Positions 4,586 through 42,879 of a DNA stretch of 64,000 bases are shown here, piece by piece. The stretch is taken from the IMG/VR virus record IMGVR_UViG_3300029267_004179, positions 32,001 through 96,000 of that record; one strand, given 5' to 3'. Every line of letters begins with the position of its first letter. Within the stretch, counting starts at the first letter, position 1. The position numbers and the translations under genes were made by a program. The stretch comes from a virus. The notes beneath the pieces were generated by a model. It searched no databases and was not told the DNA's origin. It saw only the letters and a list, made by a program, of their open reading frames with translations.

Positions 4586-5077
4586 GTGATTGACCCAAAG
4601 TTAAAAGGTAGAATTACAAGAAATGCAAATCGGTTTTCAAGAAACCTTGAATTGATGGCTTCCTTTGCAGAAAACAATGTGGAGCAAATCATCAGGAAGT
4701 CAGTTATTGATTTATTCGGAAAACTTGTAGAAAGAACACCTGTCGATACCGGTCATGCAAGAGCAAATTGGAATATTGACACCAAATTTGATCCTTCTTT
4801 GGTTACAAGAGTAGTTGCGTCAGATGTAAGAAAGTCAAGAAAAGCAGGAGCGGCAGGTAAATCAAACGAAGTAAAGTCAATTACAGCACAAAAGGCAAGA
4901 GAATTTGAATACAATATCGTGGATCAGGTTATAGTTATTTATAACAATGTCCCTTATATTGAAGCGTTGGAAAACGGCCATAGTAAACAAGCAGCGCAGG
5001 GATTTATAGCAATGACAGTAAAGGAGTTTTCAGATCAGTTTTCAGCGAATGCAAGGCAACTTGCAGGGGAAATATAA
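4586..5077 (+). CDS. HK97 gp10-like tail completion/neck protein
   Basis: TPVDTG.ARANW and NNVPYI..LE.GHS.QA..G motifs. Confidence 0.9.
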   Translation: MIDPKLKGRITRNANRFSRNLELMASFAENNVEQIIRKSVIDLFGKLVERTPVDTGHARANWNIDTKFDPSLVTRVVASDVRKSRKAGAAGKSNEVKSITAQKAREFEYNIVDQVIVIYNNVPYIEALENGHSKQAAQGFIAMTVKEFSDQFSANARQLAGEI

Positions 5078-36464: not shown

Positions 36465-36724
36465 TGGGTTTTAATTATAAATATTATAGAAGCAGATACA
36501 AGCCAAAAGTTGTCAGTGAACTTCCGAAAGACATGAGGTATATTACTGTGAAAGAGGCAGCTGACTATTACGGTGTTACAAGTCAAACTATTCGTCATTG
36601 GTATTTGTCCGGCAAATTAATATCGGTGATGTATAACCGGAAGATTTTTGTCAGGGTATCAGGATCAATTAATGATATGTTAGGATTTGTGTCTAAAAAG
36701 GATATCAGACCTGGCGTTATATAA
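36464..36724 (+). CDS. helix-turn-helix DNA-binding protein (excisionase/MerR-like)
   Basis: ITVKEAA.YYGVT.QTIR.W...GKL. Confidence 0.8.
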   Translation: MGFNYKYYRSRYKPKVVSELPKDMRYITVKEAADYYGVTSQTIRHWYLSGKLISVMYNRKIFVRVSGSINDMLGFVSKKDIRPGVI

Positions 36725-36740
36725 GAATTTTGCCGCTTTA

Positions 36741-36822
36741 TTTAGCTTGTATTAAACGATCTAATAAAAACTAATACCTATATATAGGGTAAAAATTTTA
36801 TAGGCCTTAAAACGGAAATAAG
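36741..36822 (+). repeat. dispersed intergenic element, copy 5
   Basis: Core at 36783-36804; left flank as in copies 2 and 7. Confidence 0.95.
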
Positions 36823-36944
36823 ACAGCTTTGCTGTTCAAACCGGACTTAAAGATGATAAATTGCTTAAAATAGGCTAAATTATGTTTTTTTTGATTATTT
36901 GTTAAAATTTATGTAAAAATATAAAAATTTTTTATTCAATGATT

Positions 36945-36970
36945 AGGCGCTGTTATTCAGCGCCTTTTTT
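36945..36970 (+). terminator. intrinsic terminator
   Basis: AGGCGCTG-TTATT-CAGCGCCT followed by a T-run. Confidence 0.85.
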
Positions 36971-37148
36971 ATTTTCAAAGATAATGAGAGAAAATATATA
37001 AAAAAAGTTTTCATAAAAGCATTATATCATTGTTATCACTTGATAAAAATTTTTACAGTTTTCCGATAATCAATCATAAGCTTGGATTTTAGATGATTAT
37101 CCGGTTTTACTTTTCCGCTGTATATTATAAAAAGGAACCTAAGTTTTA

Positions 37149-37160
37149 TGATCTTTTACA
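37149..37160 (+). promoter_or_regulatory. boxA-like antitermination sequence
   Basis: TGATCTTTTACA vs rrn boxA TGCTCTTTAACA (10/12), just downstream of TATATTATAA. Confidence 0.55.
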
Positions 37161-37630
37161 TCGTCGAGTACGTTGAGGGGCTGGCAAGAGGATTGGCCGG
37201 ATAAAATACCTTATAAAAAACACCCCAAGAATTCAAACTCACTTGATGCCATCCGGGAAAAGTAACCAAGCGGGCCATAACTTAACCTTAAATTTTAAGG
37301 TTAAGCCTTTCAGGGCTGCGGAGACGAAATATGGAAGTCTCTTCCTGATAAGCCAAAAATCAGCCAAGAAAACGGGGAAACCCGATAAGGGCTGGGCGCC
37401 AAGGTGAAAAATTCATGTTGACCTATATATCTGCAAACCAAAGATTGGATTTCATCTCCATTATAACCAGCACGAATCAAGTAATGCTGCAGGAATTATC
37501 CTTTGGGCGGCATACCGCATTGAATCAAGTAGATGTGCAGGAGCATATAGGTCAACAGCAATAAGGGATGATTTATCATCCCAACTAAGCTTTTGTCTTT
37601 ATATAAAGGACAGAAGTTTAGTTGGGTTTA
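37161..37630 (+). ncRNA. candidate large structured RNA / early-operon leader
   Basis: No ORF of 60 aa or more; GC-richer than its flanks; many stems, including the 13-bp 37416-37428/37545-37557 enclosing two GAATCAAGTA-loop hairpins; G-U pairs. Confidence 0.65.
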
Positions 37631-37673
37631 TAAGGCATTTTTATAAAACTTTAACTTTAATTAGGAGGGAATT

Positions 37674-38027
37674 ATGTCTGATAATAAAAATGATATTAGT
37701 ATAATAGATGCTATAGGTTCTTTAAGGCCTTTCACAGAAGGTGATTGGCAAGGGTACAGTGGAGCTGAAGGCGACAATCCATTAATTGCTGAAATTGGCA
37801 GTTTCATCTTTATTATCGATGAAGCTGGCATCCAGGTAGATTATGTCCATGATTTTGATGAAACTGATGAAGATGGAGAACCCATTCTTGGAAGTCCTTG
37901 GGATGAGAGGTTTTTGTCCTTGGGCACTCAGTGTGTTAGCATCGCTGTTTTCTTTGAGATTTTCCGACTTATAAATAGCGAAGGCATCACTATGAGTGAT
38001 GCCTTGGATAAGCTGAACTTTAAATAA
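37674..38027 (+). CDS. early hypothetical protein
   Basis: AGGAGG RBS; RPFT..DW.GYSGAE...PLIAE. Confidence 0.75.
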   Translation: MSDNKNDISIIDAIGSLRPFTEGDWQGYSGAEGDNPLIAEIGSFIFIIDEAGIQVDYVHDFDETDEDGEPILGSPWDERFLSLGTQCVSIAVFFEIFRLINSEGITMSDALDKLNFK

Positions 38028-38059
38028 TATGAATGATATAAGCAGAAAATGGAGGAGAT

Positions 38060-38278
38060 ATGAGGGAATTTGAGAGGCTGAGCCATATGATGACAGAGGA
38101 GTTTCATTTAATAGACTGCGGAACATTTTATGAGACAACTGATAACAGATTTGTTGGTTACCCGCAAGGGCCAAATCAAAATGATGGGTTGCTTGTGCTT
38201 GATCGTAAAATGGATAAGTATGTTGGTTTTTTCCAGGACGTGAAAGAAGCCAACTTTGCTGTAAATTTAATTGAATAG
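38060..38278 (+). CDS. early hypothetical protein
   Basis: GGAGG RBS. Confidence 0.65.
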   Translation: MREFERLSHMMTEEFHLIDCGTFYETTDNRFVGYPQGPNQNDGLLVLDRKMDKYVGFFQDVKEANFAVNLIE

Positions 38279-38286
38279 GAGGCAAG

Positions 38287-38682
38287 ATGAAATTAAAAAA
38301 GAAGACAAGCCCTAAAATCAGCAAGAAGGAATGGGCAAGGATGCTTGCCCTTGTTGACTCAGCAGCATCTTTAAAAGTTGAGGTTGACAGCCTGAAAAAT
38401 ACTTTGGAGGATATGAAAGGCACTCTGAAGGAATTTGCAGCTCGTGCCAAAGTAAAGAAAATTAAAAGCAAAAATTATACCGCTGCTTTTAAGGACGGAA
38501 AAAAGACAGAGATTGACCCTGAGCTGTTTTATGATGAGGTAGATGATATTGATGATTTTATTTCGTCAATATCGGTGAAGGTGACTGAGGCAAGGGAAGT
38601 ATTGTCAGCAAAAGCGATTGATAAAATTGCATTTGTGGAAGTTAAGCCATATAATTCTGTTTCTTTTAAATTTATCGATTGA
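38287..38682 (+). CDS. early hypothetical protein
   Basis: AGGAGG RBS; coiled-coil N-terminus. Confidence 0.7.
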   Translation: MKLKKKTSPKISKKEWARMLALVDSAASLKVEVDSLKNTLEDMKGTLKEFAARAKVKKIKSKNYTAAFKDGKKTEIDPELFYDEVDDIDDFISSISVKVTEAREVLSAKAIDKIAFVEVKPYNSVSFKFID

Positions 38683-38713
38683 TGTCTATTTTGAAAGTAT
38701 TCTGGTTAGATAG

Positions 38714-38774
38714 CACCGAAACAGCCGCAAGGCTGTCTATCATGGGTGGTTCCATGGTACTGATGAGGTAGCCA
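38714..38774 (+). ncRNA. type II hammerhead ribozyme 1
   Basis: ACC-GAAA-CAGCC(GCAA)GGCTG-TC-TATCATGG(GTGGTT)CCATGGTA-CTGATGA-GGT; loop TGGTT pairs with 3' AGCCA; predicted cut after C38737. Confidence 0.93.
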
Positions 38775-38864
38775 AATAAAATATAAAGTTTGACAAACTG
38801 AAAATAATGTTTAAAACAGCTTTCGATGGTATTGAACCGCACTATTAATAAAAAGGAGGATAAA

Positions 38865-39074
38865 ATGGTCTTCGCAACTTTTAATACGATCAATGGGAAA
38901 AGGTCTGGAAGGGTCATTCAAGCCCATTCCAAGTCCATTATTGTCCAACTGTGTTCTTTTAAAAGGAACAAGATTACCAGGATGCATCAGATCATCCCGG
39001 AAAAAGTAATCACTCGGCATCTGGAAAAACACAGAGTAAAAATATATGATGAGAAGGTGATCCCCATCAACTAA
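38865..39074 (+). CDS. early hypothetical protein (SH3-like)
   Basis: AGGAGG RBS; I.RH..KH.V motif; stop codon abuts ribozyme 2. Confidence 0.7.
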   Translation: MVFATFNTINGKRSGRVIQAHSKSIIVQLCSFKRNKITRMHQIIPEKVITRHLEKHRVKIYDEKVIPIN

Positions 39075-39076
39075 AA

Positions 39077-39137
39077 CACCGAAACCGGGCTTGTCCCGGT
39101 CGTGGTAGGGTTGTGCCTACCGCCTGATGATGTAGCT
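39077..39137 (+). ncRNA. type II hammerhead ribozyme 2 (G10.1 to U variant)
   Basis: ACC-GAAA-CCGGG(CTTGT)CCCGG-TC-GTGGTAGG(GTTGTG)CCTACCGC-CTGATGA-TGT; predicted cut after C39101. Confidence 0.85.
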
Positions 39138-39162
39138 GAATGAATATAAAAGGGAGGATATT

Positions 39163-39398
39163 ATGAAAAAACGAAGGCTATATGTGGTTAGAGGGTCCGA
39201 AGACGGCATCGTAGGTGTTTACACCAACATCAAGCTTGCTTGGGAAAAGCCATTAAGGGCTTGAATGGTCATACCGGAAGTTATGCGGAAGCCGTGGTAA
39301 TGCTTAAAAAATCACATTATTTCACAGTTGAGTAAAAAGTCCCTGAAATGGGAGTCAAAGCAATATACTATATCAGTCTTCATTATTTAAATGAATAA
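39163..39398 (+). pseudogene. disrupted early gene (frameshift plus internal stop)
   Basis: GGAGG RBS; MKKRRLYVVRGSEDGIVGVYTNIKLAWEK, shift near 39245-39250, AIKGLNG...TVE*(39333)KVPEMG...YLNE*. Confidence 0.6.
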
Positions 39399-39425
39399 GT
39401 TTAAAAAACTATAAAGGAGGTAAAA

Positions 39426-39656
39426 ATGGCATTCAGAATCCTAATTCATGATGATAAAATTGGTGGAGTCGAAGACGTTCTGGAGATGGATTTGGACGTG
39501 GCACTAACTCCCAAAGGACAACTCACCGCATGGCTTCATCGACGCATTGTCAATGAAATCAAAAAAGTGGCAGAAGTGGCCGAAATGAGTTCAAACCAAA
39601 AATGGTTTAAAAAGGCAAGAAGGACAATATTGATTGAACCGGCAAGCGGAAAATAA
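39426..39656 (+). CDS. early hypothetical protein
   Basis: AGGAGG RBS; stop codon abuts ribozyme 3. Confidence 0.7.
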   Translation: MAFRILIHDDKIGGVEDVLEMDLDVALTPKGQLTAWLHRRIVNEIKKVAEVAEMSSNQKWFKKARRTILIEPASGK

Positions 39657-39657
39657 A

Positions 39658-39718
39658 CACCGAAACGGCCGCAAGGCCGTCGTGGTAGGGTTGTGCCTAC
39701 CGCCTGATGAGGTAGCCA
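39658..39718 (+). ncRNA. type II hammerhead ribozyme 3
   Basis: ACC-GAAA-CGGCC(GCAA)GGCCG-TC-GTGGTAGG(GTTGTG)CCTACCGC-CTGATGA-GGTAGCC; predicted cut after C39681. Confidence 0.93.
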
Positions 39719-39751
39719 AATAAAATACAAACAATATAAAAGGAGGATATT

Positions 39752-41167
39752 ATGAAGAAGGCTGATGACATCACAAGTTATTTGAGAGCTGGATTCAGTG
39801 CTTTCTGGGTAACTACTCAAGAGCCAAGAAGGGCTGTTGAGGTGCTGACTGAGAAGATTGAGCAATTTGTCCGGAAGGATGGTGGCAAATACAGGATTGG
39901 CAATTGGAACTGTCTTGGTGGTGATCCTGTAAAGGCCTTGTCTATCAATGGTGATTTTAATGTAAAATTCTTGATGAACTATCATTGGTTCATCAAGAAA
40001 CCACCTGTTGTGCAGACAATTCAGGATAACATAGAAGTCTGGAAAAATCATGGCAATGCTATCATAGTTGTTTCTCCTGTGATGGATATCCCCATTGAGC
40101 TTGAAAAGGATTTTGTACCTTTGTCATTGGAGCTGCCTGATGAAAAGGCCATTAAAAAGTCTTTCCAATACATTTCTGAGAGTACAAACGGGGCTGTTAA
40201 AGTGCCAGATGGGACTGATTTTGATAAGCTTGTGTCTGCCTCAAAAGGGCTTACACAGCTGGAATTAGAAAACACATTGGCCTTGTCTGTTGTGAAGAAA
40301 AGAAATTTTGATAGTGAGGTCATTTCTGATCATAAAGCCAGCATCGTTGAAAAAAGTGGACTTTTGGAGATAGTTAAGCCAACTATTACATTTGATGATG
40401 TGTGTGGTTATGACCAGATTAAACAGTTTGTCCTTTCTACTATCCGCAAGCCTGAAGCAAAGGGCATCTTAATTCTTGGTCCACCTGGATGTGGTAAAAC
40501 GATGTTCATGAATGCTCTTGTCGGCACTACCGGGAAAATAGGACTTAACCTGAATTTTGGGAAGATGTTCTCAAAATATCAGGGTGAGACTGACCAGAAC
40601 ATCGAAGCAGCTATAAAGGTGATTGAGGCCATCGGTGACTGTATTGTGATGGTAGATGAGTTTGAGAAGCAATTTGCCGGTGCTGCTTCTACCGGTGAAA
40701 CAGATAGTGGTGTGACCAGAAGGGCAACTGGCCGATGGTTGAGGTTTATGCAAGAAAGGCCAAAAGGTGTTTATATCATCGGCACATGCAACTCATTTAG
40801 AGGCATGCCGCCTGAGTATCTGAGGCCTGGAAGATGGGACAGCAGCCCTTTCTTCATTGATCTTCCGAGTCAAGGCGAAAAAATGGAGATCATGGCATAT
40901 TATTTGGGGAAATACAGGCTGGCTGTCGATGGGAGAACACCAAGACTGCCGGCCATGGATAAATGGACTGGAGCTGAAATTGAAGCGTGCTGCCGTAATG
41001 CTTCAATGATGGAGTGCTCTGTGGCTGATGCATCAAAGTTCGTTTTGCCTCAGGCAAAAACTATGGAAGATGAAATTTCCGAGCTGAGGACATGGTCGAA
41101 AGGCAGGACAATTCCAGCAACCATTGTGATAAAGAAAAAGAAAAAGAAAAGGGTAATTGACACATAG
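39752..41167 (+). CDS. Ycf46-like AAA+ ATPase
   Basis: Degenerate N-terminal AAA (T.E..R, IP.EL....LP), GPPGCGKT, VDEFEK, PPEYLRPGRWD..FFIDLP, WTGAEIE. Confidence 0.88.
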   Translation: MKKADDITSYLRAGFSAFWVTTQEPRRAVEVLTEKIEQFVRKDGGKYRIGNWNCLGGDPVKALSINGDFNVKFLMNYHWFIKKPPVVQTIQDNIEVWKNHGNAIIVVSPVMDIPIELEKDFVPLSLELPDEKAIKKSFQYISESTNGAVKVPDGTDFDKLVSASKGLTQLELENTLALSVVKKRNFDSEVISDHKASIVEKSGLLEIVKPTITFDDVCGYDQIKQFVLSTIRKPEAKGILILGPPGCGKTMFMNALVGTTGKIGLNLNFGKMFSKYQGETDQNIEAAIKVIEAIGDCIVMVDEFEKQFAGAASTGETDSGVTRRATGRWLRFMQERPKGVYIIGTCNSFRGMPPEYLRPGRWDSSPFFIDLPSQGEKMEIMAYYLGKYRLAVDGRTPRLPAMDKWTGAEIEACCRNASMMECSVADASKFVLPQAKTMEDEISELRTWSKGRTIPATIVIKKKKKKRVIDT

Positions 41168-41169
41168 TT

Positions 41170-41256
41170 ACAGTTAGGTGACCAGGTTTTCCTGGTCACC
41201 TGTTAAGGTAGCAAGCTGAAATCTTTGTTCTTGCTACCTTAACAGGTGATAGCTGT
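41170..41256 (+). promoter_or_regulatory. intergenic overlapping double hairpin (possible RNase III processing site)
   Basis: 11-bp hairpin at 41176-41201 overlapping a perfect 20-bp stem 41196-41215/41230-41249. Confidence 0.6.
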
Positions 41257-41293
41257 TTACTATCAACACTTATTCATATAAAATGGAGGGATT

Positions 41294-41494
41294 ATGGCTA
41301 AAAAAGTGGAGATTATTCTTGGCAAAGACGGCTCTGTAAAGATTGAGGCCTTTGGGTTTAAAGGCTCATCTTGCGAAGAAGCTGTGGAATTTTTGAAAAA
41401 GACATTGGGTGATCCTGAAACGCACGATTTGAAATCCTCCTATTATGAGGATGATTGTTTAGTTAATGGGCTGCCCAGCGGTTATTGCGGTTAA
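41294..41494 (+). CDS. DUF2997-family protein
   Basis: I....DG.V.IEA.GF.G.SC......L...LG......K..YY. Confidence 0.85.
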   Translation: MAKKVEIILGKDGSVKIEAFGFKGSSCEEAVEFLKKTLGDPETHDLKSSYYEDDCLVNGLPSGYCG

Positions 41495-41521
41495 TGCTTG
41501 ACTATTAATTGGAGGGACAAT

Positions 41522-41914
41522 ATGAGCCATATTAGCACATACAAAGCAAAAATTAAGGACATCGATGCTTTTATTCAAACACTTTCTGATGCCGGATATG
41601 CATGGCGTCAAGGGGATTTGACAGTCAAGCAGTTTGGCCGTAACTGGATAAAGTGTCATACTGCTTTCAAACTGCCAGGCTGGCAGTATGAGATTGCAAT
41701 AAACAATGAAGGTGAGCTGCTCTATGATCACTTTGGCAGCAAGCCTTCAGTGGTTGTCAATGGCAAATCCGTTAGAACAATGGACATTTTAGGGAAGACA
41801 ATCCAAGATTATAATGAGCAATCTATTGTGTCGCATGCATGGATGGAATGTGATAATGTTACCACTGAAGATTTGGAAGGTGGTGACAAAAGGGTTGTTC
41901 TTGAATGGCTGTAA
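41522..41914 (+). CDS. DUF1257/Ycf35-like protein
   Basis: MSHIS.....IKD...F...L...G; L.YD.F; Q.Y; directly after the DUF2997 gene. Confidence 0.75.
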   Translation: MSHISTYKAKIKDIDAFIQTLSDAGYAWRQGDLTVKQFGRNWIKCHTAFKLPGWQYEIAINNEGELLYDHFGSKPSVVVNGKSVRTMDILGKTIQDYNEQSIVSHAWMECDNVTTEDLEGGDKRVVLEWL

Positions 41915-41961
41915 TGGATGTCTTATAGCTGTGAATGTTTCAGATCGGAATGGAGGGTAAA

Positions 41962-42879
41962 ATGAAGAGAATCAGAAGAACTCAGGTGATGGAGAAGTTT
42001 GATCTTTTTGAAAGAGGGGTGCTTATTACCTTGGACACGAGATGTTGGGGAGCATCAGCCAAGGTGGATGACCTGACGATGAAAGGCCTTTTGAAGGAAG
42101 ATAAGGCTATGTTAGCTGATGAGATAGTTGCAGTTCAATCTCTTGTGCCTGACAAGTCAAAGCTTGCTTACATATGGCATGTCCGTGACGAGGCAAGGCG
42201 ATTTGCCCAAACCAATTCGATGCCTTCAACTATTCGTGGTCACATGTTTATTCCGAAGGATATGATTGAGTATGTTGACCATGGGCTGGCTGACCGGGAA
42301 AGAAGATTCTGGATGGGTGTGGATGAATTTCTGTTGGAATATGAAGGGCTGAGACTGAAGAAGCAAATTGAAAGCCCAGACTTGTATGATCAGTCAAAAT
42401 ATCCTGATGCAAATAGGATGCGACAGCGGTTCAAGTTCAGATGGACATTCCGGATGTTTGATGTGCCAAGTTCTGAAACAGGGTTATTATCGCCGGAAAT
42501 GTACAAGGCTGAAGTCAAAAAATTCAAGCAGGATATGGTTGATGCCAGAGACAGTATCATTTCCATAATCTCAAAAGAGTTTTTGGAAAGGATTGATTCT
42601 TTGAGGAAGCAGTGCAGCGGTGATAAGATTAGCACAGCAACTGTTGACGGGCTGAATAATTTTCTTGAAAAGTTTGATAATGTTTGGGGCGGATTCTTTG
42701 CTCATAAGCAGCTCAAGAGCATGATCAAGGATGTTAAAGCATACATGGCCGGAACAGAAGCAGATATGCTCCGGTATGATGAATCATTCAGGTCAATGGT
42801 TGGGAAGAAAATGGCTGAAGTTGGGAAGGACTTCAAAGCTGCCGGTGGTGCCCGTATCGGCAGAAAGCTGGACATATGA
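41962..42879 (+). CDS. DUF3150-like protein
   Basis: L....W.A..K, G..FIP, F...V..F...Y, D...YP....R..F. Confidence 0.65.
   Translation: MKRIRRTQVMEKFDLFERGVLITLDTRCWGASAKVDDLTMKGLLKEDKAMLADEIVAVQSLVPDKSKLAYIWHVRDEARRFAQTNSMPSTIRGHMFIPKDMIEYVDHGLADRERRFWMGVDEFLLEYEGLRLKKQIESPDLYDQSKYPDANRMRQRFKFRWTFRMFDVPSSETGLLSPEMYKAEVKKFKQDMVDARDSIISIISKEFLERIDSLRKQCSGDKISTATVDGLNNFLEKFDNVWGGFFAHKQLKSMIKDVKAYMAGTEADMLRYDESFRSMVGKKMAEVGKDFKAAGGARIGRKLDI

What the first reader, a model, noticed from the sequence alone, without database searches (positions are those of the whole stretch)
38714..39718. Three type II hammerhead ribozymes punctuate the early operon
Seen: three GAAA...GUC...CUGAUGA cores within 1 kb, with covarying stems (CAGCC/GGCTG, CCGGG/CCCGG, CGGCC/GGCCG) and a loop I-3' tail pseudoknot. 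Copies 2 and 3 start within 3 nt of a stop codon and precede the same AATATAAAAG(G)GAGGATATTATGAA RBS block. Copy 3 is a chimera of copies 1 and 2. Established: hammerheads leave 5'-OH and 2',3'-cyclic phosphate ends, and they are known in phages, but their role is unclear. Inference: a ribozyme+RBS cassette that cuts the transcript into separately stabilised, possibly circularisable gene units and serves as homology for gene gain and loss.
Basis: partly seen in the sequence, partly recalled or inferred. Interest (0 to 1): 0.82.

Follow-up and report, generated by a model that had tools for sequence, protein, structure and literature searches.

The report
Three hammerhead ribozymes between phage genes
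Three genuine self-cutting hammerhead RNAs sit between small genes just upstream of a conserved ATPase gene in an uncultured 104-kb phage. This layout has been known in phages since 2011 and is common in this phage's relatives, so it is a small, ordinary example.

Summary
Rfam's type II hammerhead model (RF02276, cut-off 37 bits) matches 38714-38777 (59.4 bits), 39077-39141 (43.4) and 39658-39721 (49.4).

copies 2 and 3 start 2 and 1 nt after a stop codon and share a ribosome-binding block. Copy 3 is a four-segment mosaic of copies 1 and 2.
- **Relatives:** 13 of 23 IMG/VR relatives (same AAA ATPase) carry 2-14 such ribozymes, 88 in all. Most follow the same stop / ribozyme / Shine-Dalgarno / ATG plan, and one usually precedes the ATPase.
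- **Best reading:** the ribozymes cut a polycistronic transcript into gene-sized mRNAs whose new ends are both closed by hairpins.
- **Caveats:** copy 2 has a U.C mispair next to the core and a weak pseudoknot. Copy 3 can form only a shifted pseudoknot.
- **Weaker parts of the interpretation:** RNA circles have no support here. Cassette shuffling at the ribozyme joints fits the data but is unproven.

Perreault et al. 2011 already described and tested such clusters. This scan has also met larger arrays in many other phages. It is a new member of a known kind, of low to moderate interest.

The parts
38714..38777 (+). Hammerhead 1 (type II). Stem II 38715-38717/38767-38769; GAAA 38718-38721; stem III hairpin 38721-38736; C17 = 38737 (cut 38737|38738); stem I 38738-38745/38752-38759; loop I 38746-38751; CUGAUGA 38760-38766; pseudoknot 38747-38751 with 38770-38774.
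   Evidence: RF02276 59.4 bits. Full core and 5-bp pseudoknot read. Loop-tail dG -3.9 to -4.4, typical for the lineage.
39077..39141 (+). Hammerhead 2 (type II), probably the weakest copy. Cut 39101|39102; stem I 39102-39109/39116-39123; CUGAUGA 39124-39130; U at position 10.1 (39131) mispairs with C11.1 (39080).
   Evidence: RF02276 43.4 bits. U10.1.C11.1 mispair read. Loop-tail dG -1.3 to -2.4, rank 62 of 68. Starts 2 nt after the TAA stop at 39072-39074.
39658..39721 (+). Hammerhead 3 (type II), a mosaic of copies 1 and 2. Cut 39681|39682; stem I 39682-39689/39696-39703; CUGAUGA 39704-39710; stem II GGU 39711-39713; tail AGCCA 39714-39718.
   Evidence: RF02276 49.4 bits. Mosaic identities. 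Starts 1 nt after the TAA stop at 39654-39656. A hammerhead directly precedes the ATPase in G003, G004, G007, G008, G009, G010, G012, G015, G017 and G019 and in L026/G018.
39143..39167 (+). A-rich leader, Shine-Dalgarno (GGGAGG) and ATG 39163 after hammerhead 2.
39733..39756 (+). A-rich leader, Shine-Dalgarno (GGAGG) and ATG 39752 of the ATPase after hammerhead 3; 92% identical to the block after hammerhead 2.
   Evidence: After cleavage the leader folds as a 5'-terminal 8-bp hairpin followed by an open SD.
38287..38682 (+). 131-aa ORF upstream of hammerhead 1 (ORFan).
   Evidence: no PHROG hit, only sub-threshold Pfam hits, and no homologue in relatives' loci.
38865..39074 (+). 69-aa gene between hammerheads 1 and 2. 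The unit between the two cut sites is 364 nt.
   Evidence: SD AAGGAGG plus ATG. No Pfam or PHROG hit. A 32%-identical 70-aa homologue (pairwise E 8e-11) lies just downstream of the ATPase in relative G015.
39163..39335 (+). Small ORF after hammerhead 2, split into two frames (39163-39264 and 39240-39335) at the GGGAAAAG run. It is either a frameshift or an assembly error.
   Evidence: No family hit even when read through with X at the break.
39426..39656 (+). 76-aa ORFan gene ending 1 nt before hammerhead 3. The unit between cut sites 2 and 3 is 580 nt.
39752..41167 (+). AAA+ ATPase (PF00004), the conserved gene served by hammerhead 3.
   Evidence: Homologues are 41-57% identical in many 60-113-kb phage contigs.
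41170..41250 (+). Candidate fossil fourth hammerhead, now a double hairpin. A 10-bp hairpin sits in the place of stem I, CTGTTAA replaces CTGATGA, and GGTAGC follows. That last stretch forms the 5' arm of a 15-bp hairpin.
   Evidence: Collinear alignment with the 3' two-thirds of the three copies. Fold -51.4 kcal/mol, z -6.2. No Rfam hit. Relatives G003, G004 and G010 have an intact hammerhead right after the ATPase.

Best explanation
These are three bona fide type II hammerhead ribozymes transcribed as part of one long rightward mRNA of the phage's replication-gene region.

Proposed mechanism:
1. As each ribozyme folds it cuts after C17 (38737, 39101, 39681). This releases 364-nt and 580-nt gene units and a separate ATPase mRNA.
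2. [quoted passage not shown]
3. Both new ends are hairpin-capped. The upstream mRNA ends, 24-27 nt after its stop codon, in the stem III hairpin with a 2',3'-cyclic phosphate. The downstream mRNA begins with a 5'-OH at the base of the stem I hairpin, followed by an A-rich leader and a strong Shine-Dalgarno 17-36 nt further on.
4. The inferred effect is to uncouple neighbouring cistrons. Each gets a standard leader and protected ends, much as the synthetic RiboJ insulator does.

What is shown and what is inferred:
- Shown here: family membership, core integrity, and placement rules across a phage lineage.
- Shown by others for similar arrays: cleavage in vitro and in vivo.
- Inferred: cleavage of these particular copies, and the stability/insulation benefit.

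Copy 1 looks fully competent and copy 3 probably so. Copy 2 is probably slow.
For: - **Family match:** RF02276 scores of 59.4, 49.4 and 43.4 bits against a cut-off of 37.
- **Core and stems:** all conserved core nucleotides are present in the three copies, and stem III shows a compensatory change between copies 1 and 3.
- **Relatives:** 88 further hits in 13 of 23 relatives, all on the gene strand and clustered around the ATPase, up to 14 per genome.
- **Placement rule:** 55 of 75 non-redundant copies start -2 to +4 nt from a stop, and 73 of 77 end 17-36 nt before SD+ATG.
- **Conserved position:** a hammerhead directly precedes the ATPase gene in G003, G004, G007, G008, G009, G010, G012, G015, G017 and G019 and in L026/G018.
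- **Pseudoknot in the lineage:** loop I / tail complementarity exceeds permuted pairings (mean -4.88 vs -3.42 +/- 0.18 kcal/mol; 0 of 5000 permutations reach it).
- **Leader after cleavage:** the ATPase leader folds as a 5'-terminal hairpin with a free SD.
- **Literature:** triple hammerhead arrays in prophages cleave in vitro and in E. coli (PMC3088659). Three type II hammerheads near phage-like genes cleave in vivo in D. vulgaris (PMC8782182). Processing of polycistronic transcripts is the standing hypothesis (PMC6765202).
Against: - No cleavage or RNA-end data exist for this phage.
- Copy 2 has a U.C mispair at 10.1/11.1, which Perreault et al. used as a reason to reject candidates. Its pseudoknot is also among the weakest.
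- Copy 3 lacks the canonical-register pseudoknot.
- Ten of 23 relatives have no hammerhead and no other Rfam ribozyme in this region. Presence is patchy on the ATPase tree, for example 11 copies in one genome and 0 in its well-supported sister. The element is therefore dispensable.
- The stability and insulation benefit is inference only.
- That the three copies lie on one transcript is assumed from gene orientation and the lack of a strong terminator or promoter between them.
Confidence: 0.68

Rival explanations
1. The main role is at the DNA level. The roughly 100-nt ribozyme+leader modules, repeated in one orientation, serve as recombination joints through which this phage lineage duplicates, deletes, reorders and exchanges early-gene cassettes. 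RNA cleavage would be secondary. This reading does not exclude the best explanation.
For: - Copy 3 is a four-segment mosaic of copies 1 and 2.
- Copies within a genome are more alike than copies between genomes (mean 0.70 vs 0.62), and some genomes hold 5-7 identical copies.
- The conserved blocks (ATPase; DUF2997+g138; a ~390-aa gene; DUF3150) occur in different orders in different relatives, with hammerheads at most block borders.
- The 69-aa gene lies upstream of the ATPase here and downstream of it in G015.
- Between relatives the ribozyme+leader is the best-conserved DNA, and copies cross-match at non-orthologous positions.
Against: - Hammerheads lie between so many genes that any breakpoint would fall near one by chance.
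- Similarity within a genome could equally reflect common constraints. Conservation of an active catalytic core is not explained by a DNA role alone.
Confidence: 0.3
2. The gene units between two ribozymes are ligated into circular RNAs (or spliced or shuffled), either by the reverse hammerhead reaction or by a host RtcB-type ligase.
For: - Cleavage gives 5'-OH and 2',3'-cP ends, the substrates of RtcB and of hammerhead self-ligation (established chemistry).
- All three copies share the same stem II strands (ACC/GGU, apart from U10.1 in copy 2). Any 3' product end could therefore dock on any 5' product end.
Against: - The only helix holding the two ends together would be a 3-bp stem II.
- The phage encodes no RtcB, RNA ligase, 2'-5' ligase/CPDase or Pnk.
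- Perreault et al. looked for circular and spliced products of such arrays and detected none.
- Known ribozyme-made circles (viroids, retrozymes) use type III or type I hammerheads with extended helices that juxtapose the ends.
Confidence: 0.05
3. The copies are decaying or selfish repeats with little present function in this phage. They would be remnants of a larger array, tolerated because cleavage is harmless.
For: - Only three copies are present, against up to 14 in relatives, and presence on the ATPase tree is patchy.
- Copy 2 has a core-adjacent mispair and a weak pseudoknot, and it precedes a frameshifted ORF.
- A probable fossil copy with a ruined core lies after the ATPase.
- A degenerate copy that Rfam does not detect is visible in relative G019.
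Against: - All core nucleotides are intact in all three copies.
- Stem III shows a compensatory change between copies 1 and 3.
- The position before the ATPase is conserved in G003, G004, G007, G008, G009, G010, G012, G015, G017, G019 and L026/G018.
- The strict spacing to stop and start codons across the lineage argues for selection.
Confidence: 0.15
4. Cleavage is conditional rather than constitutive. The ribozyme begins 0-2 nt after the stop codon, so a terminating ribosome must unfold stems II and III, and cutting would then report on translation of the upstream gene. Alternatively, the slow variants (copies 2 and 3) are tuned by Mg2+ or another factor.
For: - The abutment of the stop codon and the 5' strand of stem II is a lineage-wide rule.
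- Copies differ in predicted strength.
- Perreault et al. raise regulated cleavage for slow phage variants.
Against: - There is no ligand-binding extension or alternative conserved fold.
- The tight packing can be explained by genome economy and by the benefit of a minimal 3' tail.
- There is no direct evidence.
Confidence: 0.12

Closest known systems
Clustered hammerhead ribozymes flanking single genes or short gene blocks in prophages (Perreault et al. 2011, PLoS Comput Biol, PMC3088659)
   Same: Several hammerheads lie within about 1 kb on the gene strand, in intergenic positions, flanking small genes of varying identity in phage DNA. The type II topology with a loop I / 3'-tail pseudoknot is shared. 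The same hypothesis was proposed (processing of long phage transcripts into gene-length mRNAs), and circles and splicing were considered there too.
   Different: Nothing essential differs. This report adds lineage context: up to 14 copies per relative, a regular stop/ribozyme/SD/ATG spacing, a conserved copy before an AAA ATPase gene, and patchy presence among relatives. Cleavage is untested for these copies.
Rfam RF02276 Hammerhead_II family
   Same: All three copies match end to end above the gathering score, with an intact catalytic core and closed stems I and III.
   Different: Copy 2 has U instead of G at 10.1. Copies 2 and 3 have loop I GUUGUG, which does not pair with the tail in the usual register.
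Type II hammerheads of Desulfovibrio vulgaris, shown active in vivo by cyPhyRNA-seq (PMC8782182)
   Same: They are type II hammerheads next to hypothetical and phage-like genes. Both product ends were captured from cellular RNA.
   Different: Those three are at separate genome locations, not a tandem array within one operon.
RiboJ and related synthetic ribozyme insulators
   Same: This is a functional analogy. A self-cleaving hammerhead upstream of an RBS removes upstream context and leaves a 5'-OH leader with a hairpin, which standardises expression of the downstream gene.
   Different: RiboJ is an engineered type III satellite-virus hammerhead with an added hairpin. It is not homologous or a natural operon element, and the analogy is inferential.
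Retrozymes and viroid-like circular RNAs made by tandem hammerheads (PMC7761336, PMC4918200)
   Same: Units are bounded by two hammerheads and released with 5'-OH and 2',3'-cP ends.
   Different: Those use type III or type I ribozymes and long helices to bring the ends together, host ligases, and non-coding or retroelement units. Here stem II is 3 bp, the units are mRNAs, the phage has no ligase, and there is no evidence of circles.

Membership tests
Hammerhead ribozyme type II (RF02276) | Covariance-model score at or above the curated gathering score (37 bits) | tested here: met
   59.4, 43.4 and 49.4 bits, all matching model positions 1-66 of 66.
Hammerhead ribozyme type II (RF02276) | Conserved catalytic core: C3 U4 G5 A6 N7 G8 A9, G12 A13 A14, A15.1-U16.1, H17 | tested here: met
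   CUGAUGA, GAAA, the A15.1-U16.1 pair and C17 are present in all three copies (read; alignments).
Hammerhead ribozyme type II (RF02276) | Three-way junction with stems I and III closed by loops and stem II open (type II permutation) | tested here: met
   Stem III has 5-6 bp and stem I 8-9 bp, both hairpins. Stem II is formed by the 5' and 3' ends.
Hammerhead ribozyme type II (RF02276) | Base pair 10.1-11.1 adjacent to the core | tested here: inconclusive
   G-C in copies 1 and 3. U.C mispair in copy 2 (39131/39080), read. Perreault et al. rejected candidates with such mispairs unless activity was shown.
Hammerhead ribozyme type II (RF02276) | Loop I / 3'-tail pseudoknot of four or more pairs (present in most but not all type II members) | tested here: inconclusive
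   Copy 1 has 5 bp, UGGUU/AGCCA. Copy 3 can form only a shifted GGUU/AGCC that needs the last stem I pair to open (dG -0.2 strict, -5.1 relaxed). Copy 2 gives -1.3 to -2.4, rank 62 of 68.
Hammerhead ribozyme type II (RF02276) | Mg2+-dependent self-cleavage 3' of position 17 | not testable with these tools
   Needs an in vitro transcription or cleavage assay, or mapping of 5'-OH / 2',3'-cP ends.
Clustered phage/prophage hammerhead arrays (Perreault 2011) | Several hammerheads close together, co-oriented with the genes, flanking single genes or short blocks | tested here: met
   Three copies in 1 kb on the + strand flank a 69-aa gene and a block of two small ORFs.
Clustered phage/prophage hammerhead arrays (Perreault 2011) | Phage context, with the flanked genes not constant between genomes | tested here: met
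   The record is a 104-kb virus record. The flanked ORFs have no homologues in relatives' loci, except the 69-aa gene, which is found at another position in G015.
Ribozyme-made circular RNAs (viroid/retrozyme-like) | A means of joining the ends: extended helix juxtaposing the termini and/or a dedicated ligase | tested here: not met
   Stem II is 3 bp. No RtcB, RNA_ligase, 2_5_RNA_ligase2 or Pnk-type kinase was found in the 104-kb genome. A host ligase cannot be excluded.
Ribozyme-made circular RNAs (viroid/retrozyme-like) | Detectable circular RNA | not testable with these tools
   Needs RT-PCR with divergent primers or RNase R RNA-seq.

The most novel reading that the evidence does not exclude
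In this phage lineage the roughly 100-nt 'hammerhead + leader + SD' module serves two purposes. On RNA it cuts and caps each cistron. On DNA, as the best-conserved co-oriented repeat of the region, it is the joint at which early-gene cassettes are duplicated, lost, reordered and exchanged between co-infecting relatives. The mosaic copy 3 and the fossil copy after the ATPase would be footprints of that traffic.
Probability: 0.25. Interest if true: 0.55.

Novelty: new member of a known kind. Interest (0 to 1): 0.27.

Why it matters
The biological role of bacterial and phage hammerheads is still called largely elusive (PMC6765202). This window adds little by itself, because it holds three copies of a layout published in 2011. 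The lineage around it could serve as a test bed:
- Some related phages carry 0 copies and others 14, around the same conserved ATPase block.
- The stop / ribozyme / SD / ATG geometry is very regular.
- Sister genomes with and without arrays allow natural comparisons of what the ribozymes do for mRNA stability and translation.

If the modules also prove to be recombination joints, that would link a catalytic RNA to phage genome plasticity.

Tried and rejected
- **Phage database:** a blastn search of INPHARED with 38000-41200 found no match.
- **Direct relatives of the ATPase:** one distant locus in viral contigs and none in metagenome contigs. An alignment-based search was needed.
- **Genome contigs:** only one relative, a Desulfobacteraceae MAG scaffold, so no host call was made.
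- **The look-up of encoding contigs:** The four near-identical contigs that encode the same ATPase could not be fetched, and neither the frameshift nor cassette indels could be checked.
- **Other ribozyme classes:** none found in the window, the rest of the genome, relatives' arrays, or hammerhead-less relatives.
- **ORFs between the ribozymes:** Pfam and PHROGs gave nothing above threshold.
- **Promoter scan:** no more sites than in shuffles, and no + strand terminator between the copies.
- **Pseudoknot in copy 3:** my first strict calculation suggested it had none. Allowing the closing pair of stem I to open gave a typical energy, so I withdrew the claim that copy 3 is impaired.
- **Dispersed element near 36783:** my pattern search was mis-registered and found nothing. 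This says nothing about that element.
- **Phage-encoded end-healing or sealing enzymes:** none found. The single AAA_33 hit is the P-loop of the ATPase itself.
Full report
**1. What is there**

The window is bases 32001-96000 of a 104,019-bp IMG/VR virus record that CheckV rates complete. Rfam's type II hammerhead model (RF02276, gathering score 37 bits) matches three times on the + strand:

| Copy | Coordinates | Bits | Cut after C17 |
|---|---|---|---|
| 1 | 38714-38777 | 59.4 | 38737 |
| 2 | 39077-39141 | 43.4 | 39101 |
| 3 | 39658-39721 | 49.4 | 39681 |

- Each match covers model positions 1-66.
- The default gathering scan of the whole window lost copy 2 to its speed filters. It appears in the more permissive scans, above the gathering score.
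- Nothing else in the window, or in the remaining 40 kb of the genome, matches a ribozyme family. Two tRNAs lie near the right end of the genome.
- Reading base by base, each copy has the layout CACC-GAAA-(stem III hairpin)-GUC, then the stem I hairpin, then CUGAUGA-(G/U)GU and a tail.

**2.

- **Stem III** is CAGCC/GGCUG, CCGGG/CCCGG and CGGCC/GGCCG, as stated. Copies 1 and 3 differ by a compensatory A-U to G-C change.
- **Stop codons.** Copies 2 and 3 begin 2 and 1 nt after TAA stops.
- **RBS blocks.** They are followed, 21 and 30 nt after the model end, by ATG codeons preceded by near-identical A-rich Shine-Dalgarno blocks at 39143-39167 and 39733-39756.
- **Copy 1** is looser. It lies 31 nt after the stop of the 131-aa gene and 87 nt before the next ATG at 38865.
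- **Chimera.** The claim is correct, and the pattern is a four-segment mosaic:

| Segment of copy 3 | Identity to copy 1 | Identity to copy 2 |
|---|---|---|
| 5' part with stem III | 92% | 72% |
| Stem I | 55% | 22/22 identical |
| Core plus tail | 96% | 57% |
| RBS block | 83% | 92% |

**3. Are all three likely to cut?**

All conserved core nucleotides are present in each copy.

- **Copy 1** has a 3-bp stem II (ACC/GGU) and a 5-bp loop I / tail pseudoknot (UGGUU/AGCCA).
- **Copy 2** has U at 10.1, which gives a U.C mispair next to the core. Perreault et al. used this feature to reject candidates unless activity was shown.
- **Copies 2 and 3** share loop I GUUGUG instead of the GUGGUG common in relatives. 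In the usual register this puts U.U or U.C in the middle of the pseudoknot.
- **Energies, strict loop definition**: loop-tail duplex -3.9, -1.3 and -0.2 kcal/mol for copies 1, 2 and 3. The lineage median is -4.1.
- **Energies, closing pair of stem I allowed to open**: copy 3 can form a shifted GGUU/AGCC pairing at -5.1, which is typical. Copy 2 stays weak at -2.4, rank 62 of 68.
- **Lineage control**: own loop-tail pairings beat permuted ones (mean -4.88 vs -3.42 +/- 0.18; none of 5000 permutations reach it). The pseudoknot is therefore a real constraint in this lineage.

My reading is that copy 1 is competent, copy 3 probably so, and copy 2 probably slow. Only an assay can settle this.

**4. 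Surroundings**

- The genes between the ribozymes have no PHROG hit and no Pfam hit above the curated cut-offs. They are a 69-aa ORF (38865-39074), a small ORF split by a frameshift in an A-run (39163-39264 and 39240-39335), and a 76-aa ORF (39426-39656).
- Downstream lie an AAA+ ATPase (39752-41167), a DUF2997 protein, a 138-aa protein, a DUF3150 protein and a sigma-70-like protein.
- No + strand terminator-like site lies between the copies, and promoter-like sites are no more frequent than in shuffles. A single transcript is therefore plausible but unproven.

**5. Relatives**

- The ATPase has hundreds of homologues at 41-57% identity, many on 60-113-kb contigs.
- An alignment-based scan found 23 IMG/VR loci.
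- Searching those whole records with RF02276 gave 88 hits in 13 of 23 records. All are on the gene strand and clustered around the ATPase, with up to 14 per genome.
- Among non-redundant copies, 55 of 75 start -2 to +4 nt from an upstream stop, and 73 of 77 end 17-36 nt before an SD plus ATG.
- A hammerhead directly precedes the ATPase gene in G003, G004, G007, G008, G009, G010, G012, G015, G017 and G019 and in L026/G018. The position of copy 3 is therefore conserved.
- No other Rfam ribozyme class occurs in these arrays.
- Ten relatives have no hammerhead or any Rfam family near the ATPase. Several have GC-rich hairpins at the same intergenic site.
- On an ATPase tree, presence is patchy. One genome with 11 copies is the well-supported sister of one with none.
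- An unrelated GC-rich viral contig (L007) shows the same design, with at least four tandem copies each starting at a TGA stop.

**6. Cassettes**

- A simple ORF and cluster map shows conserved blocks occurring in different orders in different genomes, with hammerheads at most block borders. The blocks are the ATPase, DUF2997+g138, a ~390-aa gene, and DUF3150.
- The small genes between hammerheads are mostly unique to each genome.
- The window's 69-aa gene has a 32%-identical homologue directly downstream of the ATPase in G015.
- Between relatives, the ribozyme plus leader (about 100 nt) is the best-conserved DNA, and copies cross-match at non-orthologous positions.
However, ribozymes lie at so many junctions that coincidence cannot be excluded.

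**7. Mechanism**

Type II topology means that cleavage leaves two hairpin-capped ends:
- The upstream RNA ends in the stem III hairpin with a 2',3'-cyclic phosphate, 24-27 nt after its stop codon.
- The downstream RNA starts with a 5'-OH at the base of stem I, followed by an open A-rich leader and SD.
- Only the 3-bp stem II links the products, so they should separate.

I infer that this uncouples cistrons and gives each protected ends and a standard leader. This is in line with the processing hypothesis in the literature and is functionally like synthetic ribozyme insulators. That comparison is from memory, not from a paper read here.

Circularisation is unlikely for three reasons:
- Stem II is only 3 bp.
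- The phage encodes no RtcB, RNA ligase, 2'-5' ligase or Pnk.
- Perreault et al. reported no circles or splicing in such arrays.

**8. A possible fourth, dead copy**

- The 126-nt spacer after the ATPase folds into two long hairpins (-51.4 kcal/mol, z -6.2).
- It aligns collinearly with the 3' two-thirds of the hammerheads. A hairpin takes the place of stem I, CTGTTAA replaces CTGATGA, and GGTAGC follows.
- Relatives G003, G004 and G010 have an intact hammerhead at that position.
- I regard it as a probable fossil, at about 60%.

**9. Known or new**

- Perreault et al. 2011 described multiple hammerheads flanking single genes or short blocks in prophages and noted that the gene identities vary. 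They showed cleavage of triple arrays in vitro and in vivo, proposed transcript processing, and considered circles.
- Later reviews still call the role elusive.
- Earlier reports of this scan describe the same layout in many other phage genomes, with arrays of 8-30 copies. The scan has therefore found this before on other DNA.
- This window is a small new member of a known kind. The lineage data gathered here add context but no new principle.

Noticed in passing
window 41170-41250: The spacer after the ATPase gene forms two long perfect hairpins (10 and 15 bp; -51.4 kcal/mol, z -6.2). It aligns with the 3' two-thirds of the hammerheads, with CTGTTAA in place of CTGATGA. It is probably a dead hammerhead turned into a hairpin element. 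Some relatives have an intact hammerhead at this position.
   Followed up: partly
window 39163-39335: The small ORF after hammerhead 2 is split into two overlapping frames at a GGGAAAAG run. This is either a frameshift or an assembly error. The read-through has no Pfam match.
   Followed up: partly
window 36724-37673: A roughly 950-nt gene-free stretch leads the operon. It holds a palindromic CCTATATATAGG element near 36783, a terminator-like hairpin with a T-run at 36945-36975, and a GC-richer structured-looking part at about 37150-37630. There is no Rfam match.
   Followed up: no
L007:80-1090 (- strand), IMGVR_UViG_3300032272_001087: An unrelated GC-rich viral contig has at least four tandem type II hammerheads. 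Each starts at the TGA stop of a small gene and ends a few bases before the next ATG.
   Followed up: partly
L009, L012, L020, L021, L023, about 60-200 nt upstream of the ATPase start (near 4800-5000): Relatives without hammerheads have stable, often GC-rich hairpins at the intergenic site where other relatives have a hammerhead. No Rfam family matches them.
   Followed up: partly
G012:C1:21043-21119, G018:C1:2050-2127 and G012:C1:22212-22299: Some array members in relatives carry core variants. Two have CCGAUGA (C at position 4) and one has GAUAA in place of GAAA. They still score 24-42 bits.
   Followed up: no
L066 (G019), reverse-complement coordinates 2632-2726: This stretch matches a hammerhead+leader of relative G018 at 76% identity, but Rfam does not detect it. 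It is probably a degenerate copy between two genes.
   Followed up: no
window 39752-42879 and relatives: AAA+ ATPase, DUF2997, a ~130-aa protein and DUF3150 form a conserved gene set in this phage group, but their order differs between genomes. In L026 the ATPase frame appears split (381 + 73 aa).
   Followed up: partly
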